The position numbers and the translations under genes were made by a program. Source: a virus (Duplodnaviria > Heunggongvirae > Uroviricota > Caudoviricetes). From it: DNA of 10,347 nt. The notes under the pieces were generated by a model. The model had not been told where the DNA came from, did not search any database, and saw only the letters and a program-made list of their open reading frames with translations. Shown here piece by piece: positions 4,297-9,737 of the stretch (the first letter of the stretch is position 1; the number at the start of each line of letters is the position of its first letter). The stretch covers positions 89,069 to 99,415 of the IMG/VR virus record IMGVR_UViG_3300032250_000269. One strand, 5' to 3'.

Positions 4297-5343
4297 ATGA
4301 TTAAGTTTCCTAGCGTAGATCAGTTTCGTAACGTGATTCGTCACGTACAGACGCATACACGTTATGCTGGTAAGGATGAGAACGGTGAAGCAATTTATGA
4401 TGCTTCTCGCCCACTTCCTACACTGAAGTTTCGTGGCACTGTAAAGCTTCATGGTACTAATGCTGGTATCGTGTATGATAATGCGACTGATTCAATCACG
4501 TATCAGTCACGTGAGCGTGTGTTGTCACTTACTCAAGACAACGCTGGCTTCATGCTGAACATGATGAACCATGAAGATAAGCTTCTCAAGGCATTTCGCA
4601 CCATGGCTTTTAATCACACTCCCGATCTTGATAAGATTGCGGTGTTTGGTGAGTGGTGTGGACAGGGAATTCAAAAGGGAGTTGCTGTAAGCGAACTTCC
4701 TAAGATGTTTGTTGTATTTGCTATCAAGTTTACATTCACTGATGGTTATTTTGAGTGGGTTGACATTGAAGGCGATGAGATTGAAGGTACAACAATCCCT
4801 AACATGTTTTACATCGATGATTTTCCAACATGGGAAATTGATGTTGACTTCAAGTATCCTGAGATTGCTCAGAACGAGATGATCAAGATCACTGAAGCGG
4901 TCGAAGCTGAATGTCCTGTTGGTAAGCACTTTGGTGTTTCTGGTATTGGTGAAGGTGTTGTATGGGCCTGTATCAGTGAAGGATGGGAGGATAACTCTGG
5001 AACTTGGTTCAAGGTCAAGGGTGAGAAGCATTCTGTTTCAAAGGTGAAGACACTTGCTGCCGTTGACATTGAAGCTGTCGAAAACATGCGTGAGTTTGTT
5101 AAGAGTGTGGTAACTGAAGCACGACTTGAACAAGGTCTTGACAACCTAGTACGTGAGCAGCTAAAGCCTTTTGAAATGACAAGCATGGGTGACTTCATTC
5201 GTTGGATATACAACGATGTACTCAAGGAAGAAATGGACACTATCATCGCTAACCAAATCGATCCTAAAAAGCTGGGTGGCGCTGTTGCTAACGAAGCACG
5301 TCCTTGGTTCATCAAGAAGTTTAATGAAGGTGTAGGTCTTTAA
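4297..5343 (+). CDS. rnl2: RNA ligase, Rnl2 family (348 aa)
   Basis: Nucleotidyltransferase motifs: I KLHGTN (Rnl2-type KxHGxN), III FGEWCG, IIIa VFAI, IV GEGVVW, V FKVK. SD AAAGG upstream. Confidence 0.85.
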   Translation: MIKFPSVDQFRNVIRHVQTHTRYAGKDENGEAIYDASRPLPTLKFRGTVKLHGTNAGIVYDNATDSITYQSRERVLSLTQDNAGFMLNMMNHEDKLLKAFRTMAFNHTPDLDKIAVFGEWCGQGIQKGVAVSELPKMFVVFAIKFTFTDGYFEWVDIEGDEIEGTTIPNMFYIDDFPTWEIDVDFKYPEIAQNEMIKITEAVEAECPVGKHFGVSGIGEGVVWACISEGWEDNSGTWFKVKGEKHSVSKVKTLAAVDIEAVENMREFVKSVVTEARLEQGLDNLVREQLKPFEMTSMGDFIRWIYNDVLKEEMDTIIANQIDPKKLGGAVANEARPWFIKKFNEGVGL

Positions 5344-5534: not shown

Positions 5535-5610
5535 GCTCTCTTAGCTCAGTGGTTAGAGTAAGACTCTCTAAAAGTCATGGTCGTGGGTTCGAATCCCACA
5601 GAGAGCACCA
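5535..5610 (+). tRNA. Amber suppressor tRNA, anticodon CUA
   Basis: Acceptor stem GCTCTCT/AGAGAGC, A73 and encoded CCA (5608-5610). D arm GCTC-AGTGGTTA-GAGT. Anticodon stem (A)GACT/AGTC(A) with loop CT-CTA-AA (anticodon 5568-5570). Short variable loop TGGTC. T arm GTGGG-TTCGAAT-CCCAC. Confidence 0.93.
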
Positions 5611-5627: not shown

Positions 5628-5816
5628 ATGAGTTTTTTTGAATATATCAGGTCACGAGAACTTTATAAATATCATAGCGAAGGAGCTAGTCCTTGGCCAT
5701 CTAACATACAGGTTATTTTTGCAGAAAAATTATTGCAAAAATGTAAAAAAATGGAAGAACAATTTCCTGTATTTCCAGAAATGTATGATAAATATCTTAG
5801 AGACAAATATGTATGA
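5628..5816 (+). CDS. Small hypothetical protein (62 aa)
   Basis: SD AGGA at 5617-5620, 7 nt before the ATG. Ends TGA. Confidence 0.65.
   Translation: MSFFEYIRSRELYKYHSEGASPWPSNIQVIFAEKLLQKCKKMEEQFPVFPEMYDKYLRDKYV
5664..5671 (+). promoter_or_regulatory. Possible T4-type late promoter TATAAATA inside ORF 5628-5816
   Basis: Perfect match to the gp55 late consensus, with a variant GATAAATA at 5787-5794. Chance matches are plausible in AT-rich DNA. Confidence 0.35.
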
Positions 5817-5956
5817 CAGATATGAGTTCGTACACAAGTAACAGAGTTTTCGAAGGTAAGCGTGTTATTACTGACGAACAAGCCAAAAGGCACCGTGAAA
5901 GGCTCAAAAGAGCATTAGATAGAAGGAAGAATGATATGAGCACTGAAACTATGTAG
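5813..5956 (+). CDS. Small basic ORF (47 aa) ending in amber TAG; an internal SD could yield a 6-aa leader MSTETM (5936-5956)
   Basis: Read by hand: MTDMSSYTSNRVFEGKRVITDEQAKRHRERLKRALDRRKNDMSTETM*. ATGA overlap with the upstream gene. AAGGA 5923-5927 lies 8 nt before ATG 5936. Confidence 0.6.
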   Translation: MTDMSSYTSNRVFEGKRVITDEQAKRHRERLKRALDRRKNDMSTETM

Positions 5957-5977
5957 CCGTATGACGCAATAGGACCA

Positions 5978-6027
5978 CCTTGTGGTTTAATAAGACCAAA
6001 CACAAAAATCTTATTAAAACACAAAGG
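5978..6027 (+). promoter_or_regulatory. RBS-sequestering hairpin in front of the gene at 6037
   Basis: CCTTGTG-G-TTTAATAAGA (5978-5995) pairs with TCTTATTAAA-A-CACAAAGG (6009-6027), about 17 bp. It covers most of the SD AAAGGA (6023-6028). Confidence 0.7.
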
Positions 6028-6036
6028 AATTCTATT

Positions 6037-6420
6037 ATGACAAATTTTATTAATACATTTAAGGCTAAAGCTCACTCAAAGAATCTAACATGTGCAGACA
6101 TGATTGCTCTATGCATCTATCGCACAGTCAAAGCTAAGTCAGAAGACAAAGAAACAATCCTTAAGTATTTTCTAACAAAATCATTTTCTGCTGGCAAGGT
6201 ATGTGCTCATAGGCAGTATCCTTATCAGTCAATCATCAATGCGATGTATAACTTCAACCATAGACTTCGTGGTGGTAGAATTTGGATGGATAATGCGTGG
6301 AAGCAAACCAGTGGTATTGTTCTTGGTGTCGAAGTAACTGAAGTTTTGACAGAAGAAGAACTGTTGAAGTTTCGTGAACTAGCTGCTATGATTACTCCTG
6401 ATTTTGTAAAGGCACTTTGA
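6037..6420 (+). CDS. Hypothetical protein (127 aa), upstream partner of the Pth2-like gene
   Basis: ATG 6037 with SD AAAGGA at 6023-6028, preferred over TTG 5980. Only 1 nt separates it from the next gene. Confidence 0.85.
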   Translation: MTNFINTFKAKAHSKNLTCADMIALCIYRTVKAKSEDKETILKYFLTKSFSAGKVCAHRQYPYQSIINAMYNFNHRLRGGRIWMDNAWKQTSGIVLGVEVTEVLTEEELLKFRELAAMITPDFVKAL

Positions 6421-6421
6421 T

Positions 6422-6793
6422 ATGAGACATTACGCATACTTTTTCACTCGCCAAGATATTTCTCCTGAATATCAAGTAGTACAGACAGCACATGCCGCAT
6501 TCCAGCTTGGGGTAAACTCCCAACGCTGGATTGACTCTCCACCACCAAAACAGCAAGTGATGGATGATGTTAAGGCTGAGAACACCAACTACTTCACTGT
6601 AGTTGGTGTTCGCAATCTTGACGCACTTCTTGCTGTGTCTACAATCCTTGACAAGTTTAATTTCAAGTATGAAGTTTTTCGTGAGGATGATCTTAACGGA
6701 GAACCAACTTCGATTGCAGTATATCCTATCGAAGATATTGCTAGAGGACCACTACTAGCATTTAACCTTCTCAAGATCGATAAAAAGAGTTGA
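6422..6793 (+). CDS. Peptidyl-tRNA hydrolase type II (Pth2)-like protein
   Basis: PTH2-family pattern: YFFTRQDIS..YQVVQTAHAA (cf. vvRxDL....xAQxxHA), central VVGV, then VFREDDL..EPTSIAVYP and a C-terminal R....LL. Confidence 0.7.
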   Translation: MRHYAYFFTRQDISPEYQVVQTAHAAFQLGVNSQRWIDSPPPKQQVMDDVKAENTNYFTVVGVRNLDALLAVSTILDKFNFKYEVFREDDLNGEPTSIAVYPIEDIARGPLLAFNLLKIDKKS

Positions 6794-6810
6794 CTTGAGA
6801 AGCGAATCAT

Positions 6811-6818
6811 ACTAAATA
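6811..6818 (+). promoter_or_regulatory. Late-promoter variant ACTAAATA directly upstream of the tmRNA gene
   Basis: 6/8 match to TATAAATA, located immediately before the first paired segment of the tmRNA precursor. Confidence 0.5.
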
Positions 6819-6820
6819 GA

Positions 6821-7136
6821 GTTATCAGTTGTTGACAATCAACAATAAAGGTCTAGAGGACACGGGGGCAGTACCCGTCACCTCCACCATCTACTTAGTA
6901 AGAACTGAGAGGGTATCTCAGACAAGCAATGTAGCTAATTGTTTCGGGGGTTACTTGCTAGGTAGTTGATGGGGGTGAACTAGGATCGACTTGGACGGAA
7001 TAGGAAGATCGAGACTGATTGACTGGCAAAGTGCCACAAAACGTAAATGCAAACGATAACAACGCATATGGAGCTTTTGCGCTAGCCGCATAAGTAATCG
7101 GGGGTCCGGTGGGTACCTAGCAACAGAAACCCACCA
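6821..7136 (+). ncRNA. ssrA: Circularly permuted two-piece tmRNA, alphaproteobacterial type
   Basis: Acceptor piece about 6821-6889 has T arm ACGGG-GGCAGTA-CCCGT and ends CACCTCC-A-CCA. Intervening segment 6890-6970. Coding piece begins GGGGGTG (6971-6977), giving an acceptor stem with G3:U70 alanine identity, followed by AACTAGGATCGAC. Resume context TAAAT-GCA. Tag ANDNNAYGAFALAA* at 7049-7093. Terminal hairpin GGTGGGT/ACCCACC (7108-7135). The pieces pair via TTGGAC/GTCTAG and ACTGAT/ATCAGT. Confidence 0.95.
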
Positions 7137-7160
7137 CTTTATTATGGGATGTGATTTGAC

Positions 7161-7625
7161 ATGAAACCTTATTTTGTTGGTATGGGATTTATTCCTATTT
7201 TGATCTTTGCACATTTTTTTATGCCACCATGGTTCTTTATGATAGTAGCATTTTCTATGCTATTCTTTTTTTGTCAGATGGCGGCTAATCATAAAGAACC
7301 AGTATTTGAGTGGCCTGAATTGTCGTTTTCTCAAAATGACAAAACTATCATCCTTACCATGTCAACCAAAGATGGTAAGAGTATTGATAGATATCTTTCT
7401 ATCAACCGCCTTAACCTTCCTAAAACAGTTGTTGAAAAGACCGTAGAAAAAACCACATCATCTATCTGGCACGTGCTTGGTATGATGCCTACGACTGATA
7501 GGAACGCTGTAGAGAAGGCATTTCGTAAAATGTCTATGGTATATCATCCTGATACTGGTGGTACGACTAGTGCTTTTAATGCGCTTGTGGAAGCAAAAGA
7601 AAAGGCACTACAGAAGTGTAGGTAA
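7161..7625 (+). CDS. Membrane-anchored J-domain (DnaJ-like) protein
   Basis: Hydrophobic N-terminus (about residues 4-37). C-terminal WHVLG...AFRKMSMVYHPDTGG...FNALVEAKEKAL carries the HPD motif. Confidence 0.85.
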   Translation: MKPYFVGMGFIPILIFAHFFMPPWFFMIVAFSMLFFFCQMAANHKEPVFEWPELSFSQNDKTIILTMSTKDGKSIDRYLSINRLNLPKTVVEKTVEKTTSSIWHVLGMMPTTDRNAVEKAFRKMSMVYHPDTGGTTSAFNALVEAKEKALQKCR

Positions 7626-8652: not shown

Positions 8653-8946
8653 TTTCTATAGGAGGTAGTCTACCTCCATTACCATTACAACAGCTTCAAG
8701 TCCTTATGTGGCTAAGAAAGCGTTTATGTCAAAAATAGCATAAAATCCCTTTATGCGAAAAACAACATAAACACCGACGAAAACACTAATGATTTTGCAT
8801 TCCTAGTAATGGAGGGATGGATGTAGAAGATACCGATTTTTATTTTCATTGTATCTTCTCATGAATTATTGATAGTAGGCGTTGAGATACGCTATAACGC
8901 TTTCAGTAGTTCCAAAGTCATTAATTGACGAGAATACAAATGACTT
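8653..8946 (+). ncRNA. Candidate structured 5' leader RNA of the SleB-gp33-gp59 operon
   Basis: About 290 nt with no convincing gene and many stems: GGAGGTA/TACCTCC, GCATAAA/TTTATGC, CCTCCATTAC/GTAATGGAGG, AGAAGATAC/GTATCTTCT, GCGTT/AACGC and AAGTCATT/AATGACTT. Confidence 0.55.
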
Positions 8947-9491
8947 ACTTAACAAAAAATAAAAAATATACTTTAAAAAACATAGTGATTACATTTTTTA
9001 TTATGGTATCAATTGTTGCAGCAGCAATATCAACTCCTGCAAAACCATCACCAACAGTAGAAAGTTCTAGACAAGTAGAACAAAATACTGTACAGAACAA
9101 AAGAATTACACCGTATGACGAAAGTCAGATAAATTGTCTAGCCCGAAATGCATATTTTGAGGCAGGAAATCAATCTGAAAGAGGCATGATTGCTGTTACG
9201 AGTGTAGTTATGAACCGTACTAAGGATAGTAGGTTTCCAGACACACCATGTGCTGTTATTAGACAGAAAAACCATGGTGTATGTCAATTTTCTTGGGTCT
9301 GCCAAGGTAAAAACAAAATCCGTGATGCAGATATGTTTAGAAGAGCACGAGCAGCCGCAGAGCGTGTCTATCTAAATAAAGTGTACGATGTAACACACGG
9401 CGGATTATTTTATCATGCAAAATATGTTCATCCTAGATGGAATTTAACACAGGTTGCCAGTATTGGCGCACATATATTTTATAGAGGATAG
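8940..9491 (+). CDS. SleB/CwlJ-family (Hydrolase_2) cell-wall hydrolase with N-terminal signal or anchor; ends in TAG
   Basis: CLARNAYFEAGNQ (catalytic Glu), AVTSVVMNR....RFPDTPCAVI, CQFSW, LFYHA.YV.P.W and IGAHIFY. Hydrophobic IVITFFIMVSIVAAAI. The start is ATG 8940 or the in-frame TTG 8925. Confidence 0.92.
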   Translation: MTYLTKNKKYTLKNIVITFFIMVSIVAAAISTPAKPSPTVESSRQVEQNTVQNKRITPYDESQINCLARNAYFEAGNQSERGMIAVTSVVMNRTKDSRFPDTPCAVIRQKNHGVCQFSWVCQGKNKIRDADMFRRARAAAERVYLNKVYDVTHGGLFYHAKYVHPRWNLTQVASIGAHIFYRG

Positions 9492-9494
9492 TTG

Positions 9495-9737
9495 ATGAGT
9501 GAATTAAAGTTAGCCAAAGCGATTAATACAGACAGATTTTTTAAAGAAATTGATTCTTTAGTTAAGAAACATAGACTGAGTTATATTGACGCTATAGTCT
9601 TTTTCTGTGAAAAGAACGAGATTGAAATAGAAACCGCTGCTGCAATGATCGCTGGCAACTATAGAATGAAGTCATCACTACAAACAGAAGGCGAAGAGCT
9701 TCATTTTCTGCCAAGGTCTGCTAAGCTTCCTATCTAA
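9495..9737 (+). CDS. gp33: T4 gp33-like late transcription co-activator
   Basis: F..EID..V......YIDAIVFFCEKNEIEIE...L...E.EELHFL....KLPI pattern. Conserved 33-59 gene order. SD GAGGA at 9484-9488. Confidence 0.88.
   Translation: MSELKLAKAINTDRFFKEIDSLVKKHRLSYIDAIVFFCEKNEIEIETAAAMIAGNYRMKSSLQTEGEELHFLPRSAKLPI

What the first reader, a model, noticed from the sequence alone, without database searches (positions are those of the whole stretch)
5923..6040. Amber-gated translational switch controlling the hypothetical + Pth2-like operon
Seen: SD AAGGA (5923-5927), then ATG AGC ACT GAA ACT ATG TAG (5936-5956, also the end of ORF 5813). Past the TAG the frame stays open for 27 codons (PYDAIGPPCGLIRPNTKILLKHKGILL). 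It crosses the whole hairpin 5978-6027 that hides the SD of gene 6037 and stops at TGA 6038-6040, overlapping that gene's ATG (ATGA). The amber tRNA gene is only about 340 nt upstream. Established: ATGA overlaps give translational coupling, and translating ribosomes melt RBS-sequestering hairpins. Inference: amber read-through would switch on the downstream genes, making this a leader that senses the phage's own suppressor tRNA or host RF1 failure. I know of no description of such a circuit, but I could not search the literature.
Basis: partly seen in the sequence, partly recalled or inferred. Interest (0 to 1): 0.92.

Follow-up and report, generated by a model that had tools for sequence, protein, structure and literature searches.

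The report
Amber-gated ribosome-pausing leader in phage
A lake phage places a short leader with an in-frame UAG stop just downstream of its own UAG-reading tRNA gene. The leader most likely lets the next genes be translated only when that stop is read through, which would give an "orphan" phage suppressor tRNA a conserved target.

Summary
The 27-codon open frame and the ATGA overlap are not special: 24% of this genome's genes have an extension that long, and only 2 of 24 related leaders keep the overlap.

What is conserved in all 24 distinct leaders:
- An SD and a mini-ORF with an invariant in-frame TAG.
- Six to nine in-frame codons after the TAG that end in Pro-Pro, or Gly-Pro in one. The window has PYDAIGPP; distant relatives have RGPP, RAPP and RDGP.
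- Pro codons that pair with the SD of the next gene, and a variable hairpin that starts 0-3 nt after them.

A tRNA(CUA) gene lies 41-491 nt upstream in 20 of 21 loci with enough sequence. Neither this contig nor a related 142-kb one is TAG-recoded.

Best reading (about 0.6): read-through of the UAG carries a ribosome onto a RAPP-like pause site that is itself the anti-SD strand, and this unmasks the downstream RBS. The downstream genes are a 127-aa protein of unmatched fold and a Pth2-fold protein; the two are fused in some relatives. Nothing here is experimental. The window's own motif lacks the arginine that published arrest peptides need.

I found no published natural example. Earlier AI reports of this scan describe the same design in other phage genomes.

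The parts
5535..5610 (+). tRNA with anticodon CUA (amber suppressor type), CCA encoded
   Evidence: ARAGORN. Rfam tRNA, 68.8 bits. A tRNA(CUA) lies 41-491 nt upstream of the leader TAG on the same strand in 20 of 21 related loci with enough upstream sequence. The amino acid it carries is unknown.
5813..5956 (+). 47-aa ORF that runs into the leader and ends at the gate TAG
   Evidence: The protein sequence is conserved in L001/L012. Only this lineage has it fused in frame to the leader mini-ORF.
5923..5927 (+). Shine-Dalgarno (AAGGA) of the leader mini-ORF, 8 nt before ATG 5936
   Evidence: Every related leader has an SD before its mini-ORF ATG.
5936..5953 (+). Leader mini-ORF before the gate (MSTETM); relatives mostly have M-x-N-E-G-x-G-G
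   Evidence: Third-position variation in the GGN GGN codons.
5954..5956 (+). Invariant in-frame amber codon (the gate)
   Evidence: TAG in 24 of 24 distinct leaders, 15 of them found through the downstream protein only. TAG ends only 2 of 143 + strand ORFs in this contig.
5957..5980 (+). Post-amber codons PYDAIGPP, a RAPP-like pause or arrest segment. Codons 5-8 are also the anti-SD strand.
   Evidence: Variation is concentrated at codon position 3 (7 of 8 codons, against 1 of 8 at position 2). Distant leaders with unrelated nucleotides keep in-frame RGPP, RAPP, RDGP, KPP or TGPP.
5981..6040 (+). Non-conserved tail of the read-through frame, ending at TGA 6038-6040
   Evidence: Length and frame are not conserved: stop at 0, 1, 4 or 12-32+ codons after Pro-Pro; ATGA overlap in 2 of 24 leaders.
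5968..5974 (+). P1 5' strand (AAUAGGA); pairs with 6030-6036 (UUCUAUU) between the SD and the AUG
   Evidence: Covariation GGA:UCC to GGU:ACC in L002 and L036.
5978..5984 (+). P2 5' strand (CCUUGUG, starting with the second Pro codon); pairs with 6020-6027, which includes AAGG of the SD
5987..6017 (+). P3 inner hairpin (5987-5995 pairs with 6009-6017)
   Evidence: At least 7 unrelated stem sequences occupy the same position in relatives, all starting 0-3 nt after Pro-Pro.
6024..6028 (+). Shine-Dalgarno (AAGGA) of gene 6037, paired in the free leader
   Evidence: The opening energy of the window's RBS is 6.9 kcal/mol with a ribosome at the TAG and 1.2 with a ribosome at Pro-Pro.
6037..6420 (+). 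Gene A: 127-aa protein, confident predicted fold with no match
   Evidence: pLDDT 90.6. No convincing match in PDB or AFDB. No Pfam, PHROG or NCBIfam family. Fused to the Pth2-like domain in relatives such as P0213.
6422..6793 (+). Pth2-fold protein (peptidyl-tRNA hydrolase 2-like), 1 nt after gene A
   Evidence: The top 13 Foldseek PDB hits are all Pth2/Bit1, TM 0.56-0.65. Pfam PTH2 scores only 15.4 bits against a cut-off of 23.
6791..7184 (+). Permuted (two-piece) alpha-type tmRNA, tag ANDNNAYGAFALAA; a neighbour of the module
   Evidence: A tmRNA lies within 1.6 kb of the leader in 10 of 18 leaders of the main clade.

Best explanation
This is a cis-acting translational switch of the leader-peptide (arrest-peptide) type whose input is decoding of UAG.

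Ribosomes start at the leader's own SD and ATG (5923/5936), or arrive from ORF 5813, and meet UAG at 5954. If RF1 terminates there, the ribosome's footprint ends just short of the structure. The SD of gene 6037 then stays paired with the Pro codons and the SD-AUG spacer stays paired with the Ile-Gly codons.

If the UAG is read through, most plausibly by the tRNA(CUA) encoded 344 nt upstream, the ribosome translates PYDAIGPP. It slows at Gly-Pro-Pro, a RAPP/RGPP-like site that is a literal RGPP or RAPP in distant relatives. At that point it physically occupies the anti-SD strand and the 5' arm of the hairpin. The freed SD recruits a new ribosome to gene A, and the Pth2-like gene follows by close coupling.

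Shown: the architecture and its conservation.
Inferred: the read-through, the pause, the unmasking, and the role of the phage tRNA.
For: 1. TAG is invariant in 24 of 24 distinct leaders. Fifteen of these were found only through the downstream proteins, so they are unbiased with respect to the leader. TAG ends only 2 of 143 + strand ORFs here and 11 of 169 in a related contig.
2. The frame after the TAG behaves as coding. Position-3 variation occurs in 7 of 8 codons, against 1 of 8 at position 2. A length change in L035 is exactly 3 nt. Leaders with unrelated nucleotides keep, in frame, SIRAPP, LCRGPP, TYNYSRGPP, LYLSRDGP, LCLKPP, LSTGPP and VYESTGPP.
3. RAPP and RGPP are the strongest published arrest cores. 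[quoted passage not shown]
4. In all 24 leaders the Pro codons pair with the SD, and an inner hairpin starts 0-3 nt after them. There are at least 7 unrelated stem sequences and P1 covaries. MFE z-scores range from -1.9 to -5.7.
5. In the 18 leaders of the main clade, modelled RBS opening energy falls from a mean of 7.1 kcal/mol (ribosome at UAG) to 3.1 (ribosome at Pro-Pro); in the window it falls from 6.9 to 1.2. The six distant leaders fall from 6.9-9.1 to 1.5-5.6.
6. tRNA(CUA) lies 41-491 nt upstream on the same strand in 20 of 21 loci.
7. The same leader drives two unrelated genes, A and B (hhalign probability 2.7%), so it is a portable regulatory module.
8. No other conserved use of TAG was found. 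The TAG that ends the hydrolase gene is TGA or TAA in relatives, and there is no recoding in 99 kb plus 142 kb.
Against: - Nothing is experimental. It is unknown whether the tRNA is made, charged, and able to compete with RF1.
- The window's own core is A-I-G-P-P. It lacks the arginine that is essential in ApdA, ApdP and SecM; AAPP variants are arrest-defective (PMC12992588). Here the pause may be only an ordinary EF-P-sensitive Pro-Pro slowdown.
- Sequestration of the window's RBS is moderate: 8.2 kcal/mol, the 82nd percentile of 103 RBSs in the genome.
- Part of the leader set was found with a pattern that allowed only synonymous variation, which inflates the codon-position signal. In the unbiased subset, 5 of 7 distinct changes are synonymous (my count).
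- The Gly-Pro-Pro codons are also constrained as the anti-SD strand, so not all of their conservation needs to be at the peptide level.
- L052 has no tRNA(CUA) in 780 nt upstream.
- The contig is about 56% complete, so other TAG-bearing genes may exist.
Confidence: 0.6

Rival explanations
1. The architecture is the same, but the sensed variable is host RF1 activity or general UAG read-through (near-cognate decoding when RF1 is low or inhibited), not the phage tRNA. The tRNA gene is only a neighbour.
For: The switch geometry responds to any read-through. L052 has the leader but no tRNA(CUA) within 780 nt. The amino-acid identity and charging of the tRNA are unknown.
Against: tRNA(CUA) is on the same strand 41-491 nt upstream in 20 of 21 loci, often only about 15-20 nt before the leader's SD, so the two are probably co-transcribed. 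TAG is strongly avoided as a gene stop in this contig (2 of 143), as expected if an efficient suppressor is active.
Confidence: 0.12
2. This is an RNA-only element. The conserved sequence and helices regulate the RBS (or processing of the tRNA-mRNA transcript) without translation past the TAG. The mini-ORF merely ends there.
For: Codons 5-8 after the TAG pair with the SD and spacer, so they are constrained as RNA. The third base of the Ile/Val codon is invariant A, an RNA-type constraint. The fixed TAG-to-AUG distance of 69-89 nt fits a structural module.
Against: This does not explain why the stop is always TAG. It does not explain why codons 1-4 after the TAG (outside the helices) vary only synonymously or conservatively. 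It does not explain why unrelated nucleotide sequences in distant leaders still spell RGPP or RAPP in the TAG's frame, or why the length change in L035 is 3 nt.
Confidence: 0.12
3. The leader encodes a small functional peptide containing a recoded TAG (local 'code 15' use), and regulation of the downstream gene is incidental.
For: The peptide core PY.A[IV]GPP is conserved. In L034 the read-through frame continues in frame into gene A.
Against: Only 6-9 residues are conserved. The C-terminus ends anywhere from 0 to more than 30 codons later. A sense reading would tolerate CAG or another codon in some lineage, yet TAG is invariant. There is no general recoding.
Confidence: 0.04
4. The switch works by classic translational coupling. 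Ribosomes that read through traverse the hairpin, terminate at the ATGA overlap and reinitiate on gene 6037.
For: In the window and L001 the read-through frame ends at TGA overlapping the ATG.
Against: Only 2 of 24 leaders have this arrangement. Fourteen stop 41-62 nt before the gene's ATG, directly or one codon after the final Pro (Pro-Pro, or Gly-Pro in L050); the others end in other frames inside the gene.
Confidence: 0.05

Closest known systems
RAPP/RGPP-type ribosome arrest peptides (ApdA, ApdP, ApcA; SecM with RAGP)
   Same: A short upstream ORF ends in x-(A/G)-P-P. The ribosome stalls with the Pro codons in the P and A sites and opens a stem-loop that hides the RBS of the next gene (PMC10951233, PMC12992588, PMC7897499). 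Relatives of this leader carry literal RGPP (L035, L056) and RAPP (L049).
   Different: An in-frame UAG precedes the motif, so only read-through ribosomes reach it. The nascent chain is only about 10-25 residues, with no signal or membrane segment to release arrest by pulling force. It is phage-encoded and sits next to a suppressor tRNA. The window's own core (AIGPP) lacks the essential Arg.
ermC / cat-type leader-peptide translational attenuation
   Same: The leader ORF has its own SD. A paused ribosome on the 5' strand of a helix frees the SD of the downstream gene.
   Different: The input is not an antibiotic bound in the exit tunnel. It is whether a stop codon is decoded as sense.
Engineered amber-gated leaders and suppressor-tRNA feed-forward loops
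   Same: A TAG placed in a leader peptide makes downstream expression depend on a suppressor tRNA (Liu et al. 2011, as described in PMC6412442). A suppressor tRNA and an amber-bearing target can form a coherent feed-forward loop (PMC7969014).
   Different: Those circuits are synthetic. The 2011 design acts on Rho-dependent transcription termination in tna. This element is natural, translational, and combined with a Pro-Pro pause and an anti-SD.
AMD1 stop-codon read-through followed by a C-tail arrest peptide (mammals)
   Same: Read-through of a stop codon delivers ribosomes to a downstream arrest sequence (PMC13025110).
   Different: AMD1 is eukaryotic. Its arrest limits translation of the same mRNA by queuing; it does not unmask a downstream RBS, and no dedicated tRNA is involved.
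Stop-codon-recoded phages (TAG read as Gln, 'code 15')
   Same: A phage-encoded tRNA(CUA) is proposed to time late gene expression (bioRxiv 10.1101/2021.08.26.457843; PMC9523058).
   Different: No gene in 99 kb of this phage, or in 142 kb of a relative, needs TAG as a sense codon. The only conserved in-frame TAG is in this leader.
prfB (RF2) autoregulation by an in-frame UGA (from my own knowledge)
   Same: Competition between a release factor and an alternative decoding event at an in-frame stop sets the expression level.
   Different: prfB uses a +1 frameshift inside the regulated gene itself and senses its own product. Here a separate leader, read-through and SD unmasking are used.

Membership tests
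RAPP/RGPP-type arrest peptides | C-terminal core Arg-(Ala/Gly)-Pro-Pro (or RAGP/RAPG), with Arg essential | tested here: not met
   The window has A-I-G-P-P and the main clade has [IV]GPP. The feature is met in relatives: RGPP in L035 and L056, RAPP in L049, RDGP in L050. The requirement for Arg is from PMC12992588.
RAPP/RGPP-type arrest peptides | Encoded directly upstream of a gene whose RBS is sequestered in a stem-loop that the stalled ribosome disrupts | tested here: met
   The Pro codons pair with the SD, and the hairpin starts 0-3 nt after Pro-Pro in 24 of 24 leaders. The modelled opening energy drops when a ribosome sits at Pro-Pro.
RAPP/RGPP-type arrest peptides | [quoted passage not shown] | not testable with these tools
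   Needs toeprinting, PURE translation or cryo-EM.
RAPP/RGPP-type arrest peptides | N-terminal signal or membrane segment that lets a localisation machine release the arrest | tested here: not met
   The whole read-through peptide up to Pro-Pro is 15 residues in the window and 9-24 in relatives. That is too short to leave the exit tunnel.
Leader-peptide translational attenuation (erm/cat type) | Short leader ORF with its own SD, and a pause site overlapping the strand that pairs with the downstream SD | tested here: met
Stop-codon-recoded (code 15) phages | Many genes, typically late ones, interrupted by in-frame TAG under the standard code | tested here: not met
   Coding density is 0.906 with or without TAG as a sense codon. 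Only 2 + strand ORFs end in TAG, and neither extension is conserved. The same holds for the related 142-kb contig. Caveat: the contig is about 56% complete.
Translational coupling by overlapping stop/start (ATGA) | The upstream frame terminates at or within the downstream start codon, conserved among relatives | tested here: not met
   Present in the window and L001 only; absent in 22 of 24 leaders.
Pth2 (peptidyl-tRNA hydrolase 2) for gene 6422-6793 | Pth2 fold | tested here: met
   AlphaFold model with pLDDT 84.7. The top 13 Foldseek PDB hits are all Pth2/Bit1, probability 1.00, TM 0.56-0.65.
Pth2 (peptidyl-tRNA hydrolase 2) for gene 6422-6793 | Sequence membership (Pfam PF01981 above its gathering score) and catalytic residues | tested here: inconclusive
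   Pfam gives 15.4 bits against a cut-off of 23. A profile search against PDB gives E = 1 to a peptidyl-tRNA hydrolase. Catalytic residues were not mapped.

The most novel reading that the evidence does not exclude
The leader may be a monitoring substrate as well as a gate. Read-through ribosomes arrested at the Pro-Pro site carry a very short peptidyl-tRNA. The operon's own product, gene A plus the Pth2-fold hydrolase (fused into one protein in some relatives), would resolve exactly such complexes. If so, the phage would run an autoregulated ribosome-rescue or peptidyl-tRNA-recycling system that is licensed by its suppressor tRNA and sits beside its own tmRNA.
Probability: 0.12. Interest if true: 0.9.

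Novelty: new variant of a known kind. Interest (0 to 1): 0.8.

Why it matters
Many phages with the standard genetic code carry suppressor tRNAs for which no target gene is known. [quoted passage not shown] This leader would be a conserved natural client of such a tRNA.

It would also be a natural counterpart of circuits that synthetic biologists built on purpose, namely amber-gated leaders and suppressor-tRNA feed-forward loops.

It would extend the RAPP/RGPP arrest-peptide class to phages and to a new input, stop-codon decoding instead of secretion force.

It also links a suppressor tRNA, a Pth2-fold protein, an unknown partner protein and a phage tmRNA into one translation-control module, which can be tested directly with reporters and toeprinting.

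Tried and rejected
- RNAalifold on a MAFFT alignment of 16 leaders gave no consensus structure, because the inner hairpins are unalignable in sequence. I used per-sequence folds instead.
- Gene A: Pfam, PHROGs, NCBIfam, ESM Atlas, Foldseek PDB, AFDB clusters and VIA-align wide gave no convincing match. The best Z was 5.1, which is at noise level for helical proteins.
- Gene B: no family was found and it is not related to gene A.
- tRNA identity: the closest phage tRNA is a Met/Ile-type CAU tRNA at 79% identity, so no amino acid can be assigned.
- The TAG between the hydrolase gene and the gp33-like gene is not a second programmed read-through. Relatives have TGA or TAA there.
- No comparable leader follows the tRNA-Sup genes of Xanthomonas phage XacN1 or Yersinia phage fHe-Yen9-04.
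- A scan with the TAG left out of the pattern found only the known loci plus one GC-rich chance hit.
- A gp23 family search rang nowhere, including in the control genomes, so it says nothing. A gene-A search in type-B fragments is uninformative because those records are 5-19% complete.
- A T4-type late promoter as the driver was rejected for this window. TATAAATA at 5664-5671 is not more than chance here: 2 matches against 0.84 expected, and 39 of 200 shuffles do as well. It does sit next to the leader or the tRNA in some relatives.
- Six literature searches found no natural amber-gated leader.

Full report
**Context**

The window is the last 10.3 kb of a 99.4-kb phage contig with 37.9% GC, about 56% complete by CheckV. 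The contig carries 28 ordinary tRNAs, one tRNA(CUA) and a permuted alpha-type tmRNA. It also has T4-like genes: a gp33-type late coactivator, and gp59 and gp32 in relatives.

Under the standard code the coding density is 0.906, and it does not rise if TAG is read as a sense codon. TAG ends only 2 of 143 + strand ORFs of at least 50 aa. A related 142-kb contig behaves the same way. So the phage is not recoded, yet it avoids TAG as a stop.

**Observation**

Every coordinate in the finding is right.
- SD AAGGA lies at 5923-5927. The mini-ORF ATG..ATG lies at 5936-5953 and TAG at 5954-5956, which is also the end of ORF 5813.
- There are 27 open codons up to TGA 6038-6040, which overlaps ATG 6037.
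- tRNA(CUA) at 5535-5610 ends 344 nt before the TAG.
- The region folds better than shuffles: z = -3.96 for 5970-6045.

The structure has three helices:
- P1: 5968-5974 pairs with 6030-6036.
- P2: 5978-5984 pairs with 6020-6027. Here CCUU pairs with AAGG of the SD.
- P3: 5987-5995 pairs with 6009-6017.

A 27-codon open extension follows 24% of genes here. The RBS opening energy of gene 6037 is 8.2 kcal/mol, only the 82nd percentile of 103 RBSs in the genome.

**Comparative evidence**

I collected leaders by three routes:
- Homologues of gene 6037 in IMG/VR and in the protein collections.
- Homologues of the Pth2-like gene.
- Pattern scans of viral and metagenome contigs.

This gave 24 distinct leaders. 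All 24 share the following:
- An SD and an ATG.
- A mini-ORF of 2-15 codons that ends in TAG.
- Six to nine further in-frame codons that end in Pro-Pro. L050 ends in Gly-Pro.
- A stem-loop whose 5' arm starts 0-3 nt after those codons.
- An SD (AAGGA or GGAG) that pairs with the Pro codons.
- The gene's ATG 69-89 nt after the TAG.

Fifteen of the 24 were found through the downstream proteins alone, so the invariance of TAG is not an artefact of the search. A pattern without the TAG recovered the same loci plus one chance hit.

**Is the frame after the TAG translated?**

In the main clade the eight codons read P-Y-x-A-[I/V]-G-P-P. Variation occurs at codon position 3 in 7 of 8 codons, at position 2 in 1 of 8 and at position 1 in 3 of 8. 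Some of these sequences came from patterns that allowed only such changes. In the unbiased subset I count 5 synonymous changes out of 7 distinct ones.

The distant leaders give stronger evidence. Their nucleotides are unrelated, yet in the TAG's frame they spell:
- TYNYSRGPP (L035)
- SIRAPP (L049)
- LYLSRDGP (L050)
- LCLKPP (L053)
- LSTGPP (L051)
- VYESTGPP (L055)
- LCRGPP (L056)

RAPP and RGPP are the two most potent known bacterial arrest cores. [quoted passage not shown] Finding them repeatedly, in frame, a few codons after an invariant stop codon is hard to explain unless ribosomes pass that stop.

**Structure**

All 24 leaders fold with z between -1.9 and -5.7. The inner hairpin has at least seven unrelated sequences at the same position. 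P1 shows an A-U to U-A exchange: GGA:UCC becomes GGU:ACC in L002 and L036. In nearly all leaders the Pro codons (CCN CCU) pair with the SD.

I modelled a ribosome as 28 unpaired nucleotides. With UAG in the A site the RBS stays closed. In the 18 leaders of the main clade the mean opening energy is then 7.1 kcal/mol. With Pro-Pro in the P and A sites it drops to 3.1. For the window the values are 6.9 and 1.2. The six distant leaders drop from 6.9-9.1 to 1.5-5.6.

What follows Pro-Pro is irrelevant to the design:
- Nine leaders stop at once.
- Five stop after one codon.
- One stops after four codons.
- The other nine run on for 12 to more than 30 codons in assorted frames; one is in frame with the gene.
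- The ATGA overlap occurs in 2 of 24.

This rules out translational coupling as the conserved mechanism and fits a paused ribosome.

**Link to the tRNA**

A tRNA(CUA) gene lies on the same strand 41-491 nt upstream of the TAG in 20 of 21 loci with at least 500 nt of upstream sequence. L052 is the exception. In many loci only about 15-20 nt separate the tRNA's CCA end from the leader's SD, so co-transcription is likely.

The TAG that ends the hydrolase gene in the window is TGA or TAA in relatives. The leader therefore holds the only conserved in-frame TAG I found. The amino acid carried by the tRNA cannot be inferred.

**What is controlled**

- Gene A (6037-6420) has a confident predicted fold (pLDDT 90.6) with no match in PDB or AFDB.
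- The next gene (6422-6793) has a Pth2 fold, although Pfam scores it below threshold.
- In several distant relatives the two are one protein. P0213 is an example: its C-terminal half matches the Pth2-like profile at 99.9% probability. The two proteins therefore probably work together.
- A second set of phages uses the same tRNA-plus-leader module in front of an unrelated 120-aa gene B. The leader is thus a portable regulatory cassette.
- A phage tmRNA lies within 1.6 kb in 10 of the 18 main-clade leaders.

**Mechanism and its limits**

The best-supported reading is an amber-gated arrest leader: read-through of UAG places a slow ribosome on the anti-SD strand and so opens the RBS. Only the architecture and its conservation are shown. 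Every step of the mechanism itself is inferred.

The main weakness for this particular window is that its core, AIGPP, lacks the arginine that published work finds essential (PMC12992588). The pause here may be weaker than in the RGPP and RAPP relatives. The RBS is also only moderately sequestered.

**Novelty**

Six full-text searches found only synthetic analogues. These are a TAG engineered into tna/trp-type leaders (PMC6412442) and a suppressor-tRNA feed-forward loop (PMC7969014). The eukaryotic AMD1 case, read-through followed by arrest, also turned up (PMC13025110).

Earlier AI reports of this same scan describe the same design in other phage genomes. I reached the reading independently before consulting them, and they are not independent evidence. 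One of them was later priced at 20/100 for its bold reading because nothing is experimental, and that caution applies here too.

What this window adds:
- An Arg-less [I/V]GPP variant in a T4-like lake-phage clade.
- Two alternative downstream genes.
- Fusions of gene A with the Pth2-like domain.
- The association with a phage tmRNA.
- Evidence against ATGA coupling.

Noticed in passing
window 6791-7184: A permuted (two-piece) alpha-type tmRNA with tag ANDNNAYGAFALAA sits directly after the Pth2-like gene. Relatives carry a tmRNA within 1.6 kb of the tRNA(CUA)-leader module, on either side.
   Followed up: partly
window 8925-9737: The cell-wall hydrolase ORF ends in TAG at 9489-9491 and is directly in frame with the gp33-like late coactivator gene. 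Reading TAG as sense would fuse them (270 aa). Relatives have TGA or TAA there, so this is not a conserved read-through.
   Followed up: yes
window 8811-8870: GGAGG, then ATG TAG, then a 9-bp hairpin (GAAGATAC...GTATCTTC). The stretch TGGAT(G/A)TAGAAGA plus the hairpin is conserved in L012 and partly in L013. It looks more like the end of an upstream reading frame followed by a hairpin than like a second gate.
   Followed up: partly
P0213, and probably the other 214-270-aa hits (e.g. P0217, P0226); loci L051, L052, L055: In distant relatives, gene A and the Pth2-like protein are fused into a single polypeptide of roughly 214-270 aa. This fused gene is still preceded by an amber leader (MR-TAG-LSTGPP*, MTQ-TAG-VYESTGPP*).
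   Followed up: partly
L051 88-351 and L052 511-774: Upstream of the leader there is a second amber element. MRNEQAVGG-TAG continues in frame for 77 codons through a called 57-aa gene. The 'xNEQxVGG-TAG' head is thus reused in front of another ORF.
   Followed up: no
L036 about 2040-2260 and L037 about 2080-2300: A conserved GC-rich, apparently structured segment of about 120 nt (ending ...GGCATCCCGTTGA) lies directly 5' of tRNA(CUA), between the tmRNA and the tRNA. It has no Rfam family at gathering threshold.
   Followed up: no
window 4297-5343 and 7161-7625: An RNA ligase (PF09414, phrog_548) and a small protein with a C-terminal J-domain (DnaJ, just under the Pfam cut-off) flank the module. 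The neighbourhood is rich in translation and RNA-repair functions.
   Followed up: no
L006/L021/L032 (between the tRNA and the leader), L049 (21 nt before the leader ATG), L037 and L034 (just before the tRNA): T4-type late-promoter-like TATAAATA boxes sit next to the tRNA or the leader in several relatives. The window has one at 5664-5671, inside ORF 5628-5816, but it is not more than chance there.
   Followed up: partly
L034 2423-2503 onward: In this relative the read-through frame after the TAG is in frame with gene A. Read-through ribosomes that escape the pause would make an N-terminally extended gene A product.
   Followed up: no
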